DNA of 64,000 nt from a virus. A program made the position numbers and the translations under genes. Shown here in pieces: positions 55,315 through 61,372 of this stretch (the first letter of the stretch is position 1; each line of letters begins with the position of its first letter). Below the pieces are notes generated by a model, which saw only the letters and a list, made by a program, of their open reading frames with translations, had not been told where the DNA came from and searched no databases. The stretch is from IMG/VR virus record IMGVR_UViG_3300009104_000002, positions 1 through 64,000 of that record. The stretch is one strand, 5' to 3'.

Positions 55315-55644
55315 TTATAAATCTGGGTGCTCTTTTTCTAAAATATCAAAAATATTTTCTATTTCCTTATCTTCGAGACCGAACTTTCTTTTAATTTTAT
55401 CGGCGCCGGTGATAGAATCCTTAACAATTTTGGCCTGCCTCTTACTTTGGGCGTGTTGTTCGCCCTTGTATTTCCAGATAAAGTTCATGAAATTGGGATC
55501 CCCCTCCAAGTATGCAGTTAGGACTGCCCTAAAGAACTTAGTCTTAGTTAGTCCATCATGCTTTAATCGGATCATTAAATCTGCATTTCTCTTATCCGTA
55601 TCCATAAAAGAAATTCTTTTATCCCTCTTGCCATAGTCTGACAC
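55315..55644 (-). CDS. small putative DNA-binding (ribbon-helix-helix-like) protein
   Basis: KRISF...LMIRLKHDGLTKTKFFRAVL. Confidence 0.55.
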   Translation of the reverse strand: MSDYGKRDKRISFMDTDKRNADLMIRLKHDGLTKTKFFRAVLTAYLEGDPNFMNFIWKYKGEQHAQSKRQAKIVKDSITGADKIKRKFGLEDKEIENIFDILEKEHPDL

Positions 55645-56672
55645 TATTTTCTTCCTAAAATATGCGTACTACTTTCAAGCTGGCCGGCCGTAGTCTGGAA
55701 AACAAATTGAGATTTTGCGTGCAGTTCGGCCATACTGGTAGCTCCAGAATAAGAAAACCCACTCCGTATTCCATTATCCAAATCTAAAAGAATGTCCAAA
55801 ACATTTCCACGATAGGGTACTGTTGTGGAGATCCCCTCGTTTGAACTGTGTGTCCCCCTCCAATCATGTTGAGCCTCTTTGCTTGCCATTCCTCGATAAG
55901 TCTTATATTTTTTTCCCTGCGAGGAGGTGAAAGTCGGACCTGGAGTTTGCTCTGTTCCAGCTAATATAGAACCCAACATAACAAAGTCGGCGCCGGCAGC
56001 AAGCGCTTTAACAATATCTCCACTATTTCTGATCCCGCCGTCAGCAATAATTCTTACATCCCCCCAAGTATCGGAAGATGCACAATCCAACACTGACTGG
56101 AAGGTTGGCACGCCATGGCCAGTCTGTATCCTCGTAGAGCAAATTGATCCTCCGCCGATCCCCACTCGAATAGAGTTTGCACCCCACGATGCCAAATCCT
56201 CGAAGGCGCGCTTGGTGGCGACGTTTCCAGCCATGATATGAATATGGGGGAACTCTCTCTTAATATTTTCTATTGCCTCTCTCATCATCGAGTGATGACC
56301 ATGGGCAACATCCAAACAAAGAATGGCGGCTCCCCTCTCTACGAGAGTCTCGGCCCGGTGAAAATAATCCCCACTAATTCCCGTGGCAGCAGCAACATTT
56401 TCTATTCCGTTTTCTCGGCACAGCCAAACCATATTTGCTTGTTCTTCGATGGAGTTATATCTATGGATAACCCCCAAACCACCAGACCGGTCCATTCTGA
56501 CTGCCATCTCTACTTCCGTAATGGTGTCCATCGGGGAAGAAATAATGGGAGCAGTAAAAATTCTTTCGTCGTCCAGTGAGTTGCCGATTCTCACTTGCAG
56601 CCTGCTTTCAACATCTGAATATTGCGGCACCAATAAGACATCGTCATATGAGAGGCATTGTTTAATTTTCAT
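55644..56672 (-). CDS. guaB: IMP dehydrogenase / GMP reductase family, lacking CBS domains
   Basis: LSYDDVLLVP, SSPMDT, GNVAT, RVGIGGGSICSTR, IADGGI and YRGMAS. Confidence 0.88.
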   Translation of the reverse strand: MKIKQCLSYDDVLLVPQYSDVESRLQVRIGNSLDDERIFTAPIISSPMDTITEVEMAVRMDRSGGLGVIHRYNSIEEQANMVWLCRENGIENVAAATGISGDYFHRAETLVERGAAILCLDVAHGHHSMMREAIENIKREFPHIHIMAGNVATKRAFEDLASWGANSIRVGIGGGSICSTRIQTGHGVPTFQSVLDCASSDTWGDVRIIADGGIRNSGDIVKALAAGADFVMLGSILAGTEQTPGPTFTSSQGKKYKTYRGMASKEAQHDWRGTHSSNEGISTTVPYRGNVLDILLDLDNGIRSGFSYSGATSMAELHAKSQFVFQTTAGQLESSTHILGRK

Positions 56673-57202
56673 AATTTGTCCCCAAGCTCCCAGCCAAGCG
56701 GCATTTCATAAGGATCAATTGAGCCTTGAGGAATGCCCCCCTTGTCTGTTGATCCAAGTGCGCCATCGCCCCTGTCACTCAGCGTAATGGGATACCACTC
56801 GTAGAGATTATCCTGTGATGTTTCCAGTGCTCGAAAGTGAACAACGGGAACCATTACAATTTGCGCGATCTTCATTCCTCGCTTAATAAATTGTGTTTCT
56901 ATACCGACATTGTGTAAATTAACAAAAACCTCTCCGTCATAACCAGAGTCAACGACACAGGCTCCGACGAGTAAACTGCGTTTTGAGGCGTTGCCGCTGC
57001 GGTTCTTGACTTCAAGCATATAACCGTGGGGGATTCCGAACTTTAATCCTGTCGAGAATAGTTTGCTCTCTCCTGGTTCAAGGTAAACTCCCTTTATTTC
57101 TCCGTCGTCTGGATTAAAATGAACATCCAATCCTGCATCGGATGGGTTTGCTCTTGTTGGCGGAATTGCATCCGGCCTTGTTCGATAATACTCTAAAATC
57201 AT
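56669..57202 (-). CDS. dut: trimeric dUTPase
   Basis: DAGLD, KNRSG, GACVVDSGYDGE, KIAQIV and RGDGALGST. Confidence 0.95.
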   Translation of the reverse strand: MILEYYRTRPDAIPPTRANPSDAGLDVHFNPDDGEIKGVYLEPGESKLFSTGLKFGIPHGYMLEVKNRSGNASKRSLLVGACVVDSGYDGEVFVNLHNVGIETQFIKRGMKIAQIVMVPVVHFRALETSQDNLYEWYPITLSDRGDGALGSTDKGGIPQGSIDPYEMPLGWELGDKL

Positions 57203-58140
57203 TCTTCTTTCTCCAAAGTGTTTAAGTGATTTTCAATTCTTTGCTTGCTTTTGTTAAAAAAATCCTCATCTAATTCACATCCAATAAACTTTCTACTGGT
57301 ATGTATGGCCGCAATGGCCGTTGTGGCCGAGCCGGCAAATGGATCCAAAACCAAATCCCCCTCTTTTGAATGCTTCAAAATTAAGTCCTTGAACAGTGGG
57401 AGGCTTTTTTGTGTGGGATGGAACCTTTCTTTGCCTCCCTGCACAGGATGAAAATGTATTCCATTATCAATGTATATTCCATTATCGTATTTGCTATTGA
57501 ATGTTGGCTTAGACTTTTTGATACCAAGCAACGCTATCTCTCGACAGTTGGTTAGATAATTTACTTTACTATTGATCGGTTGCGGATTTGTTTTAATCCA
57601 CTCAATAAACCTAATCTGTTTAAATTTTGCACCCTCCAATAATTCTTTTAAGTTTGTAATCTTCCACAAATCAAAAAAGATAATGCAAGTGCCTCCAGGC
57701 TTGAGGATTCTGTAAAAGTGATTAATGAATAGCTCAAGTTGTTCCAGTGTAAATTCGGAATCCCACTTGCCATAATTGGTTGTAACGGCATATTTCTTTC
57801 CGTAGATGCTGCCATACTTTAAGAAGTCGGCCTTCATCTTGGCTAGCTTCTTCTCTCGACTCGCCGGCTTAATTTTAGAATTTTCAAACCATAAATCCCA
57901 TTGTTCTTTTGTTTTATAAGCTCCCCACTCCTCTTCCGTCTTAATATTCGTGGAGTCGGACGCATCTTGTTTCTCAACATGACCCACCCACTTATCCATT
58001 CCAGTCTTTCTGGACGTGATGTAGGGTGGGTCAGTTAGGATGAGGTCAATGGAATTATCGGGAATGTCCGATAGAAATTGTAGACCTTCTTGGTGGAGTA
58101 GTATGGCTGAACTCATTATAGGGTATTTCTCGAAACCCAA
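57199..58140 (-). CDS. beta-class N6A/N4C DNA methyltransferase
   Basis: DLILTDPPY near the N-terminus; HPTQKS and VLDPFAGSATT near the C-terminus. Confidence 0.93.
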   Translation of the reverse strand: MGFEKYPIMSSAILLHQEGLQFLSDIPDNSIDLILTDPPYITSRKTGMDKWVGHVEKQDASDSTNIKTEEEWGAYKTKEQWDLWFENSKIKPASREKKLAKMKADFLKYGSIYGKKYAVTTNYGKWDSEFTLEQLELFINHFYRILKPGGTCIIFFDLWKITNLKELLEGAKFKQIRFIEWIKTNPQPINSKVNYLTNCREIALLGIKKSKPTFNSKYDNGIYIDNGIHFHPVQGGKERFHPTQKSLPLFKDLILKHSKEGDLVLDPFAGSATTAIAAIHTSRKFIGCELDEDFFNKSKQRIENHLNTLEKEE

Positions 58141-59207
58141 GTACCTTTTAAGATATGAACTGAAGTCTCTTTGAGGGTTTGTGGCATCCAGAAAATCTCA
58201 TCGAAAGCATTGAAAATATTTTTATTCCACTTTTTGGCCTTCTTTTCGATGGTTATTCGCGAAGCAGCCACAGTAGCCGTTGTCGAATCATTGAGTACTC
58301 CGACAACAATCATATGATCGATGTTTTTATTGTGTCTCAAAAGAGATGCATTGGTTGGAAGGGCGCCACCCATTTCAGACTTCTGGCTTGCAAAATATAT
58401 TCCATATACTACATTGTTTATTTTTACCACCGAACCGGAAAGCTTTGAATCCAAATCCGACTCTTTAATACCATAGGGGTTGTGGGCGCAGAAATATTCT
58501 GCTATCTTTGCTTTACTATAGTTGGCAAAACTCAATCCAACATTGGGATTACCATTTTGAATAAGCTTATTCCAAACTCCTTTGAATTTACGGCCGCCCC
58601 AAAAAGGCGTATTGCTTTTCATAAATGCTCTAGCTCGATCGTATTTATCTTTATCACTCAGGCTCTGGAATGAGGTTGGGTAGCCAATATCGAGACCCCC
58701 TTGAGATATATATTCCCTCAACATGTTGACCATTTCGTCTTTTGTAGCCGGGGATGAAGGCAGCTTATCGCCATTTTCCCTCATCTTAAGTGCTGTGCGC
58801 TCGGCTGGACTGCCCGTGAAAACCCAAGCCCAAATACCCGGCTCTCCAGTAATTGGGTGGTTAGCAATTGCTAGGCCTTTTGCGTAAGCATCATTAGCGG
58901 CCCACTCCCTATGGCATCCGAACACAATATCGAATTTACCTGTTGCTGGGTTCCACTCCAAACAGATGGGTTCTATTTGTCCTTTCGGGTCAGATATAAA
59001 AGATTCAAGAATTTGAGTTACCTTAGTTGACAGTGTGCCGCCGGAGCGCGCCGGATTGTGTGAGAAACTCTCAATATCACTTAGAGGAACAAAATAGCAC
59101 GTCTTTATTCCATCAACTGGGCACTCCATACGTTGATTTTTATAGTTTTGTAAATTACAGCTTCTTTGCGCGCTGCTTTTCAAATTAACAACTTTCCCAT
59201 AATTCAT
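58116..59207 (-). CDS. ParB/Srx-like N-terminal domain protein
   Basis: HNPAR...ILESF..DPKGQIEPICL...FDIVFGCHREWA matches the ParB GxxR core. Confidence 0.65.
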   Translation of the reverse strand: MNYGKVVNLKSSAQRSCNLQNYKNQRMECPVDGIKTCYFVPLSDIESFSHNPARSGGTLSTKVTQILESFISDPKGQIEPICLEWNPATGKFDIVFGCHREWAANDAYAKGLAIANHPITGEPGIWAWVFTGSPAERTALKMRENGDKLPSSPATKDEMVNMLREYISQGGLDIGYPTSFQSLSDKDKYDRARAFMKSNTPFWGGRKFKGVWNKLIQNGNPNVGLSFANYSKAKIAEYFCAHNPYGIKESDLDSKLSGSVVKINNVVYGIYFASQKSEMGGALPTNASLLRHNKNIDHMIVVGVLNDSTTATVAASRITIEKKAKKWNKNIFNAFDEIFWMPQTLKETSVHILKGTWVSRNTL

Positions 59208-59208
59208 C

Positions 59209-59703
59209 TTAAATTACCTTTGTTCCATATTTTTTAATCTCTGTCCAAGTAATGTTCGCACTTAAACGAGGATCCTTCTTCTGGAGAACGGTATCAAACT
59301 TTTTACGAAGTTTCGGTTTTAATAGTTTAAAGACTGTCTTTCCGCTCATTTTCCAACTCTCCACAAGCTTTCCCTTGTTGAAGCGATTGTAGTAATGCTC
59401 TGGGTACTTGGCGATTTTTTCTTTTTCCAGGTATGCTTCCTGCTCTTTCCAGGTTGGCTGAACAGAAATACCAGTATAGGCTCCCTTGGGGTTCTTGCTG
59501 GTTGTAGATTTGTATTCTACTGGCTCTCCCTTTTGGTTAAATGCATCTGCACCCGAAAAGGTTTGAGCCACAGTGTGACCAAGAACTATCGCAGCATTGA
59601 TCTCCTTTGAGCGAGCATAGCTGAATGGATCACCCCATCCTTGCTCTTCGCAAAGTTGGGCTATATTTTCATAAAGGTTTTGATATTTTTGTTCTGGTGT
59701 CAT
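59209..59703 (-). CDS. PvuII-like type II restriction endonuclease (PD-(D/E)xK)
   Basis: SGADAFNQKGEPVEYKS, IAKY and C-terminal KYGTKVI parallel R.PvuII EGNDAVDNAGQEYELKS, IAKY and EHGTKIY (recalled sequence); similar length. Confidence 0.65.
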   Translation of the reverse strand: MTPEQKYQNLYENIAQLCEEQGWGDPFSYARSKEINAAIVLGHTVAQTFSGADAFNQKGEPVEYKSTTSKNPKGAYTGISVQPTWKEQEAYLEKEKIAKYPEHYYNRFNKGKLVESWKMSGKTVFKLLKPKLRKKFDTVLQKKDPRLSANITWTEIKKYGTKVI

Positions 59704-60014
59704 TACACCTTTCCTGCCACTTTTGCAAGTGATTCATAAACTTGTGTAAATTCATCGAAGTCAAAGTCTTTTGTGCTCATCATTCGATAAGCCTTGACAG
59801 TCATAGAGATCTCATCTCCAGTCAGCCAGCCCTGCTCTTTAAAGTCTTTCTTGAGTTCACGCTTTTGCTCCTTGAATGGCTCCATAGAATCCTCAAGGGC
59901 CTTGAGGCTGCGAACATATTCAATCATCTTTTGCTCTTTTGTGCTAACGTTTTCATCCTCCACTTCTGCGTGAATTTCAACTACATTTTCAAAAATTTCT
60001 AAACCACTCATCAT
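59703..60014 (-). CDS. GapR / T4 DsbA-like dsDNA-binding protein
   Basis: EYVRSLKALEDSMEPFKEQKRELKKDFKEQGW...KAYRM. Confidence 0.6.
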   Translation of the reverse strand: MMSGLEIFENVVEIHAEVEDENVSTKEQKMIEYVRSLKALEDSMEPFKEQKRELKKDFKEQGWLTGDEISMTVKAYRMMSTKDFDFDEFTQVYESLAKVAGKV

Positions 60015-60046: not shown

Positions 60047-60075
60047 AATATAACATATAATTTTACTTCTGTCAA
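60047..60075 (-). promoter_or_regulatory. sigma70 promoter TTGACA-N17-TATATT
   Basis: aatata at 60047 and tgtcaa at 60070. Confidence 0.7.
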
Positions 60076-60317
60076 GGATTTATTTTATTTTTTATTATTA
60101 TCCAACAACCAAAATTATTGTAATTTTCTGGAAAATATCCCAATTCATATTTTTCTGCGATCTCTTTTGTTTTTTCTATGAAAGTTTCCGAATACCCTGT
60201 TATTATTTTTACCGGCAATCTTTGAAAATTATCTGTTATAAATTTCTCTATTATAAAATCAGCGGCCTCGTGACTCTCCCCATGCAAGTCGAGTATTAGC
60301 CAACGAGGATCGCTCAT
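60072..60317 (-). CDS. stand-alone Smr domain protein
   Basis: LDLHG...IEKFI...VKIITGYS...NNFG. Confidence 0.75.
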   Translation of the reverse strand: MSDPRWLILDLHGESHEAADFIIEKFITDNFQRLPVKIITGYSETFIEKTKEIAEKYELGYFPENYNNFGCWIIIKNKINP

Positions 60318-61321
60318 TAAATTGTCTCTGGACTTGAAGAGAAAACTACGTCAATTGCCCCCAAATAATCCGTTATATATGCGCAGAATTGTTCCTTATT
60401 TTGAAAGGCAAACAAATTGTTGTTTGTTCTGCCTCCGACATACAACGACCATGCCTCCACTTTTTCTAAAATATCAATCTTGTTTATTATTAAATGTGTC
60501 ACCCCGTTTACATCAATTGCTTTTTGCAAACCAGGAAGACTCAACCAGTTGCATTGTCTTGGGCGCCCAGTCGTTGCGCCGAACTCCTGCCCCACTTCCT
60601 GCAAAATATGAAACACATCCTCATCTGGTTGGAAATCTTTTGACCCCACATATGTTTCGTATGCTTTTGCTACCCCGTAAACATTCCTCACGGACTTTGG
60701 CGCGAAACCATTAAGAAGTGCGCCGGCAGTAGTACAGTGACTGCTGGTGACATAAGGGTAATCACCCCAATCAATATCCAAATTAAAACCCTGTGCGCCC
60801 TCACAAAGAACAGTGGCATCCGGAGAGCGTAAATAAAACTCCTCGTACATATCAATTAAGTAATCATGCAACACTGGAAAGTCTGCGGCGCGCGTGCCTA
60901 TTCTGGCATACTTGTCTCCATAACACGGGCCGTTACCCGTCCTTGTTGTACCAATACGCTCTTCTCCGCTATCTGCTGCGGTGTGCTTTTCTTTAATCAT
61001 ATGGGCGTTTTTTGCAATAAAGATTTTGTCGGCAACATCGATACCACCCTCCCTGAGCATTTTGATCTCTGCAAAGAACTTATGAATATCCACCACACAT
61101 CCAGGGCCGATAATGCTTTTAATCCCGAAAAATACGCCGGCCGGTATGTGGTGTGTGACAAACTTTTCGCCCTTATGATATATGGTGTGCCCCGCATTGC
61201 AACCACCATTATATCTGACACAGTGTGTATATTTTCCGTTTTTTAAAAGGTGGTGAGTTACTTTCCCTTTCCCCTCATCACCGTGTTGAACGCCAACAAC
61301 AACATCAACCGTTAAAGACAT
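60317..61321 (-). CDS. purA: adenylosuccinate synthetase (short form)
   Basis: QHGDEGKGK, GGCNAGHT, IGTTRTG, EGAQG, YPYVTSS and EFGATTGRPRQCNW. Confidence 0.95.
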   Translation of the reverse strand: MSLTVDVVVGVQHGDEGKGKVTHHLLKNGKYTHCVRYNGGCNAGHTIYHKGEKFVTHHIPAGVFFGIKSIIGPGCVVDIHKFFAEIKMLREGGIDVADKIFIAKNAHMIKEKHTAADSGEERIGTTRTGNGPCYGDKYARIGTRAADFPVLHDYLIDMYEEFYLRSPDATVLCEGAQGFNLDIDWGDYPYVTSSHCTTAGALLNGFAPKSVRNVYGVAKAYETYVGSKDFQPDEDVFHILQEVGQEFGATTGRPRQCNWLSLPGLQKAIDVNGVTHLIINKIDILEKVEAWSLYVGGRTNNNLFAFQNKEQFCAYITDYLGAIDVVFSSSPETI

Positions 61322-61343: not shown

Positions 61344-61372
61344 AGTATAGCAGCTTTTCTTTTCCGTGTCAA
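61344..61372 (-). promoter_or_regulatory. sigma70 promoter TTGACA-N17-TATACT
   Basis: agtata at 61344 and tgtcaa at 61367. Confidence 0.7.

What the first reader, a model, noticed from the sequence alone, without database searches (positions are those of the whole stretch)
57199..59703. Phage-encoded PvuII-like endonuclease, ParB-like protein and beta-class methyltransferase in one coupled unit
The 164-aa ORF parallels R.PvuII along its length: G..D.F, G.DA....G...E.KS, IAKY and terminal GTK(V/I). It is followed 1 bp later by a 363-aa ParB/Srx-domain protein, whose end overlaps a DPPY beta-class MTase by 25 bp. A type II R-M pair split by a ParB-like gene inside a lytic-type replication cluster is unusual. 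It may be a three-component system for host-DNA degradation or exclusion of competing phages, with the ParB domain as NTP sensor or regulator. DPPY suggests m6A whereas M.PvuII is m4C, and CAGCTG is still present (3772, 12332, 21281), so the specificity probably differs or the sites are methylated.
Basis: partly seen in the sequence, partly recalled or inferred. Interest (0 to 1): 0.75.

Follow-up and report, generated by a model that had tools for sequence, protein, structure and literature searches.

The report
Phage-borne PvuII-like restriction-modification cassette
An uncultured 190-kb marine T4-type phage carries an early-expressed restriction enzyme of the PvuII family with an adenine-type DNA methyltransferase; this pairing recurs in dozens of related viral contigs, whereas the ParB-like gene between them is an optional insert, not a fixed third part.

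Summary
The 164-aa ORF is a true PvuII homologue. A family profile matches PvuII end to end (E 7e-8 to 1e-15), and the AF2 model (pLDDT 97.6) has PvuII as its top 11 PDB hits (TM 0.61-0.75). D53/E63/K65 (PvuII D58/E68/K70) are invariant in 62 distinct relatives. The 363-aa ORF has a ParB/Srx N-domain with an invariant GxxR and Asn, plus a C-domain with a weak restriction-endonuclease-like fold and no catalytic triad. The 313-aa ORF is a beta-class DPPY methyltransferase, closest to the m6A enzyme M1.HpyAVI and not to M.PvuII.

In 60 distinct viral loci, R sits within one gene of a methyltransferase in 54. The partner is either this beta-class M or an unrelated small NPPF methyltransferase, as in the closest relative. 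The gene between R and M may be absent, ParB-like, a MORC-like ATPase, or one of two unknown proteins. One relative has the ParB-like gene without the PvuII-like R or this beta-class M.

The core is therefore a two-gene type II R-M cassette behind a strong sigma-70-type promoter, among nucleotide-metabolism genes. It probably cuts unmethylated host or rival DNA. Specificity is probably not CAGCTG.

This is a new variant of a known kind. Another first-stage note in this scan covers the same stretch.

The parts
60047..60075 (-). Sigma-70-type promoter (TTGACA, 17 nt, TG-extended TATATT) with an AT-rich upstream stretch, followed by AGGAG and the orf103 start
   Evidence: Promoter scan, 11 of 12 matches with TG. 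Sequence read. It is a consensus match only and its function is inferred.
59703..60014 (-). orf103, a small acidic protein of unknown function and first gene of the coupled run. Its stop overlaps the R start (TAATG).
   Evidence: No significant Pfam, PHROG or HTH hit. Conserved upstream in relatives.
59209..59703 (-). R: PvuII-family PD-(D/E)XK endonuclease homologue, 164 aa, with catalytic D53, E63 and K65
   Evidence: Family profile against PDB PvuII, E 7e-8 to 1e-15 over the full length. AF2 pLDDT 97.6. Foldseek top 11 hits are all PvuII, TM 0.61-0.75. The triad is invariant in 62 distinct homologues. phrog_35715, E 1e-60, 'unknown function'.
58116..59207 (-). ParB/Srx-like protein, 363 aa. 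The N-domain (about 31-146) has the ParB/sulfiredoxin fold with VFGCHREWA (GxxR) and RENGNK. The C-domain (about 226-363) is alpha/beta and restriction-endonuclease-like, without a D...(D/E)xK triad.
   Evidence: AF2 pLDDT 90.2. Foldseek hits to ParB, Noc, KorB, PadC and sulfiredoxin at prob 0.99-1.0. VIA-align Z 8-9 for the N-domain and Z 5-7.5 for the C-domain. R54, G97, R100, N145 and R317 are invariant across 16 slot homologues at 15-61% identity. No Pfam hit on the sequence itself; 5 of 37 homologues carry PF02195.
57199..58116 (-). M: beta-class N6_N4 DNA methyltransferase (DPPY, then DPFAGS). The probable start is the ATG at 58116 (305 aa); the first in-frame TTG is at 58140.
   Evidence: PF01555, E 6e-32. 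Closest solved structures are M1.HpyAVI at 5e-30 and CcrM at 1e-15; M.PvuII matches only the motif I region at 1.5e-6. TAATG overlap. Its stop overlaps the dUTPase start.
56669..57202 (-). dUTPase, the next gene in the same coupled run (context). It is followed by a GMP-reductase-like gene at 55644-56672.
   Evidence: PF00692, E 2e-15, and PF00478, E 6e-107. NCBIfam GMP reductase and IMPDH models.

Best explanation
This is a phage-borne type II restriction-modification cassette. R is a PvuII-family endonuclease, presumably a homodimer. M is a beta-class methyltransferase, probably N6-adenine. Both are transcribed early by host RNA polymerase from the promoter at 60075-60047, as part of a translationally coupled run: orf103, R, ParB-like, M, dUTPase, GMP reductase.

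Inferred mechanism. The packaged phage DNA already carries the protective methylation, and M maintains it on replicating DNA. R cuts unmethylated DNA at a short site, which means the host chromosome and any unmethylated co-infecting phage. That would shut the host down and feed the adjacent nucleotide-salvage enzymes.

The recognition site is probably not CAGCTG and probably contains an adenine.

The ParB/Srx-like protein is an optional, exchangeable accessory. Most likely it is an NTP-binding DNA-associated factor that assists or tunes M or R, as in known ParB-methyltransferase fusions. It is not a required third subunit.

Shown here: homology, fold, catalytic residues and gene linkage. Inferred: enzyme activities, specificity, target, and any role for the ParB-like protein.
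For: R identity:
- A family profile matches PvuII along the whole length.
- The AF2 model has PvuII as its top 11 hits.
- D53/E63/K65 have PvuII spacing and are invariant in 62 homologues.

M identity: PF01555 with DPPY, nearest solved relatives are m6A enzymes.

Linkage:
- In 60 distinct rows, 54 have a methyltransferase-like gene adjacent to R or one gene away.
- Both gene orders occur, and several genomic contexts.
- In P-TIM68 the R homologue is flanked by two annotated methylases.
- Two unrelated M families (beta-class, and the small NPPF type of phrog_799 at 9e-34) alternate next to orthologous R. This is hard to explain except by protection from R.
- Putative recognition-loop residues are near-invariant whichever M is present.

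Other R-M pairs occur in the same phage group: MvaI/BcnI with an SPPY M, and MvaI/BcnI with a Dam-type M.

Expression: a strong sigma-70-type promoter and stop/start overlaps.

Precedent: chlorovirus R-M pairs are adjacent, and host DNA degradation there is attributed ('presumably') to the packaged virus-encoded endonucleases (PMC7019647).

Accessory reading of the ParB-like gene:
- It is present in 14 of 60 rows and scattered on the R tree.
- Its ParB/Srx pocket residues are invariant.
- A ParB-adenine methylase fusion with nicking activity is on record (PMC5512222).
Against: - No activity, cleavage site or methylation data exist.
- This sequence alone is below Pfam's PvuII threshold (13.2 against 25 bits).
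- Four loci and P-SSM2 have R with no methyltransferase next to it, although P-SSM2 has two PF01555 genes 12-23 kb away.
- R lies upstream of M with no controller protein, so nothing visibly delays R.
- The host is unknown, so host-DNA degradation cannot be told apart from exclusion of other phages. In chloroviruses the endonucleases were found not to cause mutual exclusion.
- R-M systems are reported as nearly absent from virulent phages (PMC4176335), so the prior is low.
- The consistent placement of the ParB-like gene between R and M, in both gene orders, could mean more than an optional accessory.
Confidence: 0.65

Rival explanations
1. Obligate three-component system. The ParB/Srx protein is an NTP-dependent subunit that gates or targets the PvuII-like nuclease and the methyltransferase. 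The MORC-like ATPase and the other slot proteins are analogous NTPase or nuclease modules in a modular R-X-M architecture.
For: - The slot gene always sits between R and M, in both R>ParB>M and M>ParB>R orders, and in contigs with different flanks.
- It is tightly coupled, with a 1-nt spacer and a TAATG overlap.
- The ParB-like superfamily has diverged to 15-61% identity and still holds this position with invariant GxxR/Asn.
- An alternative occupant is a MORC-like GHKL ATPase. That class is known to work in R-M systems (PMC2292703).
- No ParB-like gene was seen with the small NPPF M.
Against: - Twelve distinct R-M pairs have nothing between them and 21 use the small M with no slot gene.
- The closest relative of this very R lacks the ParB-like gene.
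- L100 has a 52%-identical ParB-like gene with no PvuII-like R and no beta-class M next to it.
- No fused forms were found, though that is weak evidence.
Confidence: 0.15
2. The ParB-like gene is unrelated cargo. The R-M junction, and this whole replication and nucleotide-metabolism region, is an insertion hotspot. The ParB/Srx protein would then act on its own, for example as an NTP-regulated nickase or DNA-binding protein of the kind proposed for other phage ParB domains.
For: - The slot holds four unrelated gene families or none.
- L100 shows the ParB-like gene apart from the PvuII-like R and the beta-class M, next to UvdE.
- The same region carries other swapped R-M and methyltransferase genes in relatives.
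- Stand-alone ParB-like DNases or NTPases are described in phages (PMC5512222).
Against: Seventeen of the 80 loci place a member of this one diverged superfamily exactly between R and M, including the reversed gene order. A random hotspot would not be expected to do that. Even in L100, an R-M pair lies about 0.7 kb away.
Confidence: 0.25
3. The 164-aa protein is not a restriction enzyme. It is a PvuII-fold nuclease used for repair, recombination or structure-specific cutting, and the neighbouring methyltransferases are ordinary anti-restriction orphan methylases.
For: - The family is essentially viral. Only 3 tiny MAG contigs matched among 185,579 species genomes.
- It is annotated as unknown function.
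- A few loci lack an adjacent M.
- Orphan methyltransferases are common in phages (PMC4176335).
Against: - R keeps an M partner although the M family is swapped.
- The nearest structures are PvuII itself, well ahead of RecU or Hjc-type resolvases, which score prob 0.35 or lower.
- The full catalytic triad is invariant.
Confidence: 0.07

Closest known systems
PvuII restriction-modification system of Proteus vulgaris (R.PvuII, M.PvuII, C.PvuII)
   Same: R is a homologue of R.PvuII. It has the same length class (164 against 157 aa), the same fold, the same D-x9-E-x-K catalytic motif and a similar C-terminal GTK(I/V) end. It lies next to a beta-class PF01555 methyltransferase.
   Different: - Sequence identity is only about 17%.
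- The positions aligned with the PvuII loops STHHH and INN read SVQ.T and KDPRL. That these PvuII residues are its DNA-recognition residues is my own knowledge.
- M carries DPPY and is closest to m6A enzymes, whereas M.PvuII is an N4-cytosine enzyme.
- No C protein was found.
- The cassette is carried by a lytic-type phage, not a plasmid or chromosome.
- CAGCTG is not avoided: 16 observed against 20.8 expected in the genome.
Chlorovirus-encoded R-M pairs (for example in PBCV-1 and NY-2A)
   Same: The pairs are virus-encoded, R and M are always adjacent, and the virus DNA is methylated. Early host DNA degradation is attributed ('presumably') to the packaged virus endonucleases, in a virus that must rebalance nucleotide pools (PMC7019647; PMC10142491, abstract).
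   Different: Those are eukaryotic algal viruses with other enzyme families, 2-4 bp sites and endonucleases packaged in the virion. Here packaging is unknown, and the genes sit behind an early-type promoter in a T4-type phage.
ParB-methyltransferase fusion proteins (for example Bacillus cereus Bce_0392)
   Same: A ParB/Srx domain lies directly upstream of an adenine-type methyltransferase, here as separate genes with a TAATG overlap. The fusion's ParB domain is reported to nick DNA non-specifically (PMC5512222).
   Different: - Here they are two polypeptides.
- The ParB-like protein carries an extra C-terminal restriction-endonuclease-like domain.
- It is flanked by a PvuII-like R.
- No fused long forms were found.
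Prokaryotic MORC/paraMORC GHKL ATPases in R-M systems
   Same: In relatives L018 and L047 the gene between R and M is a HATPase_c_3, MORC2-like, MzaB-like ATPase. Such ATPases are proposed to function within R-M systems (PMC2292703).
   Different: This applies to relatives, not to this window, and the partner here is a small type II PvuII-like enzyme. It is relevant only as a parallel for an NTPase inserted into an R-M pair.

Membership tests
PvuII endonuclease family (Pfam PF09225) | Sequence match to the family model or to PvuII itself | tested here: met
   The single sequence is below threshold: Pfam 13.2 bits against 25, E 0.087, and phmmer against PDB at E 0.07. A 32-member family profile matches PvuII chains over profile positions 11-166 at E 7e-8 to 1e-15. 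Five of the 32 members pass E 0.01 on PF09225 by themselves, the best at 2.8e-6.
PvuII endonuclease family (Pfam PF09225) | PvuII fold | tested here: met
   AF2 pLDDT 97.6 and pTM 0.90. Foldseek ranks 1-11 are all PvuII, with prob 1.0, TM 0.61-0.75 and about 167-171 aligned columns.
PvuII endonuclease family (Pfam PF09225) | Catalytic D...E-x-K with PvuII spacing (D58/E68/K70) | tested here: met
   D53/E63/K65 align with D58/E68/K70 and are invariant in 62 distinct homologues.
PvuII endonuclease family (Pfam PF09225) | CAGCTG-recognition residues (His83-85 loop, Asn140/141) and CAGCTG specificity | tested here: not met
   Aligned positions read SVQ.T and KDPRL instead of STHHH and INN. CAGCTG is not depleted. 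The actual specificity cannot be tested with these tools.
Type II restriction-modification system | Endonuclease gene linked to a DNA methyltransferase gene, with the linkage conserved in relatives | tested here: met
   54 of 60 distinct loci have an M-like gene adjacent to R or one gene away, in both orders and with two M families. P-TIM68 shows the same.
Type II restriction-modification system | Site-specific cleavage blocked by the cognate methylation | not testable with these tools
   This needs enzyme assays or a methylome.
Beta-class N6/N4 DNA methyltransferases (Pfam PF01555) | Family match above threshold, with motif IV (D/S)PP(Y/F) N-terminal to AdoMet motif I | tested here: met
   PF01555 at 111.8 bits against a cut-off of 26.7. 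DPPY lies near residue 37 and DPFAGS near residue 266.
Beta-class N6/N4 DNA methyltransferases (Pfam PF01555) | Target base (N6-adenine or N4-cytosine) | not testable with these tools
   DPPY and the nearest solved relatives M1.HpyAVI and CcrM suggest m6A. This is an inference only.
ParB/Srx superfamily (Pfam PF02195 ParB N-terminal domain) | ParB/sulfiredoxin fold with the conserved GxxR pocket | tested here: met
   Foldseek prob 0.99-1.0 to ParB, Noc, KorB, PadC and sulfiredoxin. VIA-align Z 8.1-9.0 over residues 31-149. G97, R100 and N145 are invariant in 16 homologues. There is no Pfam hit on this sequence; 5 of 37 homologues carry PF02195.
Chromosome/plasmid partition ParB proteins | Central HTH DNA-binding domain, C-terminal dimerisation domain, and a ParA partner with parS sites | tested here: inconclusive
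   The C-terminal half aligns with restriction-endonuclease-like alpha/beta domains rather than ParB HTH or dimerisation domains. No ParA gene lies in the coupled run. The genome was not searched for ParA or parS.
ParB-methyltransferase fusion proteins | ParB domain and methyltransferase in one polypeptide | tested here: not met
   They are separate ORFs with a TAATG stop/start overlap. A search for longer relatives found none, which is weak evidence.

The most novel reading that the evidence does not exclude
Lytic marine T4-type phages use a modular 'R-X-M' weapon. A PvuII-like endonuclease and an adenine methyltransferase bracket an exchangeable NTP-dependent module: a ParB/Srx protein with a degenerate endonuclease-like domain, a MORC-like ATPase, or an HNH-like protein. 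That module would gate or direct cleavage. The result would be an NTP-regulated type II-like system aimed at the host genome or at rival phages, not a defence of a cell.
Probability: 0.15. Interest if true: 0.7.

Novelty: new variant of a known kind. Interest (0 to 1): 0.5.

Why it matters
Complete R-M systems are reported as nearly absent from virulent phages: nine systems in 831 genomes (PMC4176335). Here a PvuII-like R with a methyltransferase partner recurs widely. A scan of IMG/VR found 420 stretches that encode a relative of R, and 54 of the 60 distinct loci examined have a methyltransferase beside it. More than 790 protein clusters at 90% identity match R. The family includes cultured Prochlorococcus phages, where the gene is annotated only as hypothetical.

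If R is active, these phages use restriction offensively, as chloroviruses are thought to do. That bears on host shutdown, nucleotide recycling and phage-phage competition in the ocean.

The family could also yield a new specificity in the PvuII fold. It offers a natural experiment in which two unrelated methyltransferases protect against one conserved endonuclease. It is also a tractable case for asking what ParB/Srx and MORC-like modules do inside R-M cassettes.

Tried and rejected
1. Z-genome idea. The neighbouring PurA-like gene (phrog_1211, labelled as a PurZ-type synthetase) raised the thought that 2-aminoadenine DNA protects the phage from its own nuclease. NCBIfam scores it higher on PurA models (282 bits) than on PurZ (123 bits against a cut-off of 300), below every cut-off. 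I dropped the idea.

2. Inferring the recognition site from palindrome avoidance. CTCGAG, GAGCTC, CCGCGG, CCCGGG and TACGTA are absent from the 190-kb genome, and CATG is depleted. CATG, AGCT, CTCGAG and GAGCTC are also depleted in pooled R-bearing loci. A phage that methylates its own sites need not avoid them, and host pressure explains this equally well, so the result is not diagnostic.

3. R fused to M or to other domains. Longer relatives carry unrelated domains (Zeta toxin, epimerase, Myb) that may be gene-call artefacts. None is an R-M fusion.

4. Longer fused forms of the ParB-like protein: none found.

5. PADLOC and NCBIfam give nothing for R or the ParB-like protein. The atlas search shows only viral hypothetical clusters.

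6. DNA-level search of isolated phages finds only short methyltransferase matches. tblastn with the ParB-like protein finds no isolated phage.

7. Controller (C) protein. orf103 has no HTH or other significant hit.

The viral-contig scan with the ParB alignment returned only two loci.

9. The two unknown slot proteins (about 469 and 639 aa) have no PDB or Pfam match beyond a weak HNH hint.

10. The careful tree search did not finish, so the tree cited is the quick one.
Full report
**Observation.** They belong to a longer, tightly packed run.
- An upstream 103-aa ORF (59703-60014) ends in a TAATG that overlaps the start of the 164-aa gene.
- One base separates the 164-aa stop from the 363-aa ATG.
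- The 363-aa stop forms another TAATG with an ATG at 58116.
- Relatives of the methyltransferase align only from residue 8-14. That ATG, not the upstream TTG, is therefore probably the real start, and the '25-bp overlap' is probably a 1-nt overlap.
- The methyltransferase stop overlaps the dUTPase start.
- A near-consensus sigma-70-type promoter with an extended -10 and a strong AGGAG lies just upstream of orf103, at 60075-60047.
- The window is the first 64 kb of a 190,479-bp viral record. An earlier follow-up in this scan calls it an uncultured T4-type phage.

**The 164-aa protein is a PvuII homologue.**
- Alone it only grazes PvuII: Pfam E 0.087 and PDB phmmer E 0.07. The aligned stretch is nevertheless the catalytic motif.
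- Full scans found more than 790 close homologues and 203 clusters at 50% identity, mostly marine.
- A profile of 32 diverse members matches PvuII chains over essentially the whole length, at E 7e-8 to 1e-15.
- The AlphaFold2 model is very confident (pLDDT 97.6). Its first eleven PDB neighbours are all PvuII, with TM 0.61-0.75.
- D53, E63 and K65 correspond to PvuII D58, E68 and K70 with identical spacing. They are invariant in 62 distinct homologues, as are E34, K96, H103 and a KDPR loop at 143-146.
- The positions aligned with the PvuII loops STHHH and INN read SVQ.T and KDPRL. That these are PvuII's recognition residues (His83-85, Asn140/141) is my own knowledge.
- CAGCTG is present five times in the window and is not depleted in the genome. 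The fold and chemistry are PvuII-like, but the specificity very probably is not.

**The 363-aa protein.** Pfam, PHROGs, NCBIfam and PADLOC are silent on it.
- Five of its 37 homologues carry PF02195.
- The model (pLDDT 90.2) has an N-terminal domain that matches ParB, Noc, KorB, PadC, sulfiredoxin and the ParB-fold serine kinase. Foldseek gives prob 0.99-1.0 and VIA-align gives Z 8-9.
- The motif VFGCHREWA supplies the GxxR of the ParB/Srx pocket. RENGNK parallels the ParB 'EN' box; that comparison is my own knowledge.
- Residues 226-363 form a second alpha/beta domain. Its best neighbours are mostly restriction-endonuclease-fold proteins: AF2093, PaqCI, NucS, YaeQ, FokI, BglII and BamHI. The scores are only Z 5-7.5, which the tool itself warns may reflect a common arrangement.
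- Across 16 slot homologues at 15-61% identity, only R54, G97, R100, N145 and R317 are invariant, and G170 is kept in 15 of 16.
- The ParB/Srx pocket is therefore under selection, while the C-domain has no D...(D/E)xK triad. I read it as an NTP-binding or DNA-handling protein, not a canonical nuclease.

**The methyltransferase.**
- PF01555 at E 6e-32, with DPPY ahead of the AdoMet motif, is beta-class.
- Its nearest solved relatives are the m6A enzymes M1.HpyAVI (5e-30) and CcrM. M.PvuII matches only around motif I, at 1.5e-6.

**Linkage in relatives.** A scan of IMG/VR found 420 stretches that encode a relative of R, and I kept 80 loci. After removing duplicates there are 60 rows including the window.

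| Arrangement | Rows |
|---|---|
| R then beta-class M, adjacent | 10 |
| M then R, adjacent | 2 |
| R, ParB-like superfamily member (323-382 aa), M | 13 |
| M, ParB-like, R | 1 |
| R, MORC-like GHKL ATPase, M | 2 |
| R, unknown ~469-aa protein (weak HNH hint), M | 3 |
| R, unknown 639-aa protein, M | 2 |
| R then small (176-203 aa) NPPF methyltransferase-like gene | 21 |

- The MORC-like ATPase carries HATPase_c_3 and matches MORC2 and MzaB.
- The small NPPF gene is highly conserved. It matches phrog_799 'DNA methyltransferase' at 9e-34 and gives weak Eco57I and EcoRI-methylase hits.
- Of the remaining six rows, the contig ends about 50 nt after R in L020 and just after a ParB-like gene in L053. 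L021, L059, L079 and L082 show no methyltransferase next to R.
- In cultured phage P-TIM68 the homologue lies between two annotated methylases.
- In P-SSM2 it is alone, with two PF01555 genes 12-23 kb away.
- On a quick ML tree of R the partner types are interleaved. The window's R is sister (SH-aLRT 98) to L008, which has the small NPPF gene and neither the ParB-like gene nor the beta-class M.
- R therefore stays while its methyltransferase is swapped between two unrelated families. This is what is expected if the methyltransferase is there to protect against R.

**The ParB-like gene is not a fixed third component.**
- It is absent from most cassettes, and unrelated genes can replace it.
- In L100 a 52%-identical copy sits between a UvdE gene and orf103, with no PvuII-like R and no beta-class M beside it. 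A different pair, a Dam-type M and an MvaI/BcnI endonuclease, lies about 0.7 kb away.
- When it is present with the PvuII-like R, it always lies between R and M, in both gene orders and in different genomic contexts. That leaves room for a real functional tie.
- Known parallels are ParB-adenine-methylase fusions with nicking activity (PMC5512222) and MORC-type ATPases embedded in R-M systems (PMC2292703).

**The region is a general R-M hotspot in this phage group.**
- The contig of the closest relative also carries an MvaI/BcnI-family endonuclease (Pfam 2e-17) with an SPPY methyltransferase, upstream of DnaE.
- At the same place this genome has a solitary DLPY methyltransferase just past the window's end.

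**Mechanism (inferred).** Host RNA polymerase transcribes the run early. R, presumably a PvuII-like dimer, cuts unmethylated DNA. The incoming phage genome is already methylated and M keeps it so. The cassette sits among dUTPase, a GMP-reductase-like gene and a PurA-like gene. Taken with the chlorovirus precedent (PMC7019647), this makes host-chromosome destruction with nucleotide recycling the most economical reading. Exclusion of unmethylated co-infecting phages is an equally compatible target that I cannot separate from it. Nothing here shows activity, site or target.

**Comparison and novelty.**
- It works like a type II R-M system, and R is a member of the PvuII structural family.
- It is not an orthologue of the PvuII system. 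The M class signature differs, the recognition residues differ and there is no C protein.
- Close relatives of R are essentially confined to viral sequence. Only three 2-3 kb MAG contigs matched among 185,579 species genomes, in a pattern-limited search.
- Databases label the family 'unknown function'.
- R-M systems are reported as nearly absent from virulent phages (PMC4176335), so a widespread phage R-M family with swappable partners is of moderate interest.
- I rate it a new variant of a known kind, with interest 0.5.

**Limits.**
- The careful tree search did not finish.
- Most loci are 4-10 kb pieces of fragmentary contigs. 'No M nearby' is therefore not 'no M in the genome'.

Noticed in passing
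window 60317-61321 (-), 55644-56672 (-) and 56669-57202 (-): A short (334 aa) PurA-like adenylosuccinate synthetase, a 342-aa GMP-reductase/IMPDH-family enzyme without a CBS insert, and a dUTPase flank the cassette. Together they suggest a phage route from GMP to AMP. The PurA-like protein scores higher on PurA models (282 bits) than on PurZ (123 bits against a cut-off of 300). This is therefore not evidence for a 2-aminoadenine genome.
   Followed up: partly
whole genome (190,479 bp; the window is its first 64 kb): Several 6-bp palindromes are completely absent: CTCGAG (0 observed, 22 expected), GAGCTC (0, 18.6), CCGCGG (0, 15.3), CCCGGG (0, 9.8) and TACGTA (0, 6.2). CATG is at 0.66 of expectation. 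CATG, AGCT, CTCGAG and GAGCTC are also depleted in pooled related loci. This is probably host restriction pressure, and the host is unknown.
   Followed up: partly
just beyond the window: genome 64805-65440 (-), locus L088:1477-2208: A second beta-class methyltransferase (243 aa, DLPY, PF01555 at 5.5e-31) lies immediately upstream of DnaE and has no endonuclease beside it. At the equivalent place the closest relative's contig has an MvaI/BcnI-family endonuclease (230 aa) plus an SPPY methyltransferase (L095:722-2193).
   Followed up: partly
L100:2965-7013: A related phage carries UvdE, a ParB-like gene (52% identical to the window's), orf103, dUTPase, a Dam-type (PF05869) methyltransferase and an MvaI/BcnI endonuclease (Pfam 3.6e-41). 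It has no PvuII-like gene. This is a different R-M pair in the same neighbourhood.
   Followed up: partly
window 61344-61372 (-) and 60047-60075 (-): Two near-consensus sigma-70-type promoters (11 of 12 matches, TG-extended -10) precede the PurA-like gene and orf103. They resemble the repeated early promoters that other first-stage notes describe at 28-42 kb.
   Followed up: partly
protein P0168 (343 aa, from the representative search): This metagenomic protein matches the 164-aa query in two stretches, the best-scoring at its residues 184-330, and Pfam places a PvuII domain at 176-297. It may be a natural tandem 'single-chain' PvuII-like enzyme or a gene-call artefact.
   Followed up: no
window 60072-60317 (-): An 81-aa ORF between the PurA-like gene and the orf103 promoter has a weak Smr-domain hit (E 0.011) and is conserved in two relatives.
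   Followed up: no
L064:4090-4995 and equivalents in the clade at 55-58% identity: In the clade that pairs R with the small NPPF methyltransferase, the gene just upstream of R is a DUF6267 protein (PF19782 at 1.5e-80), function unknown.
   Followed up: no
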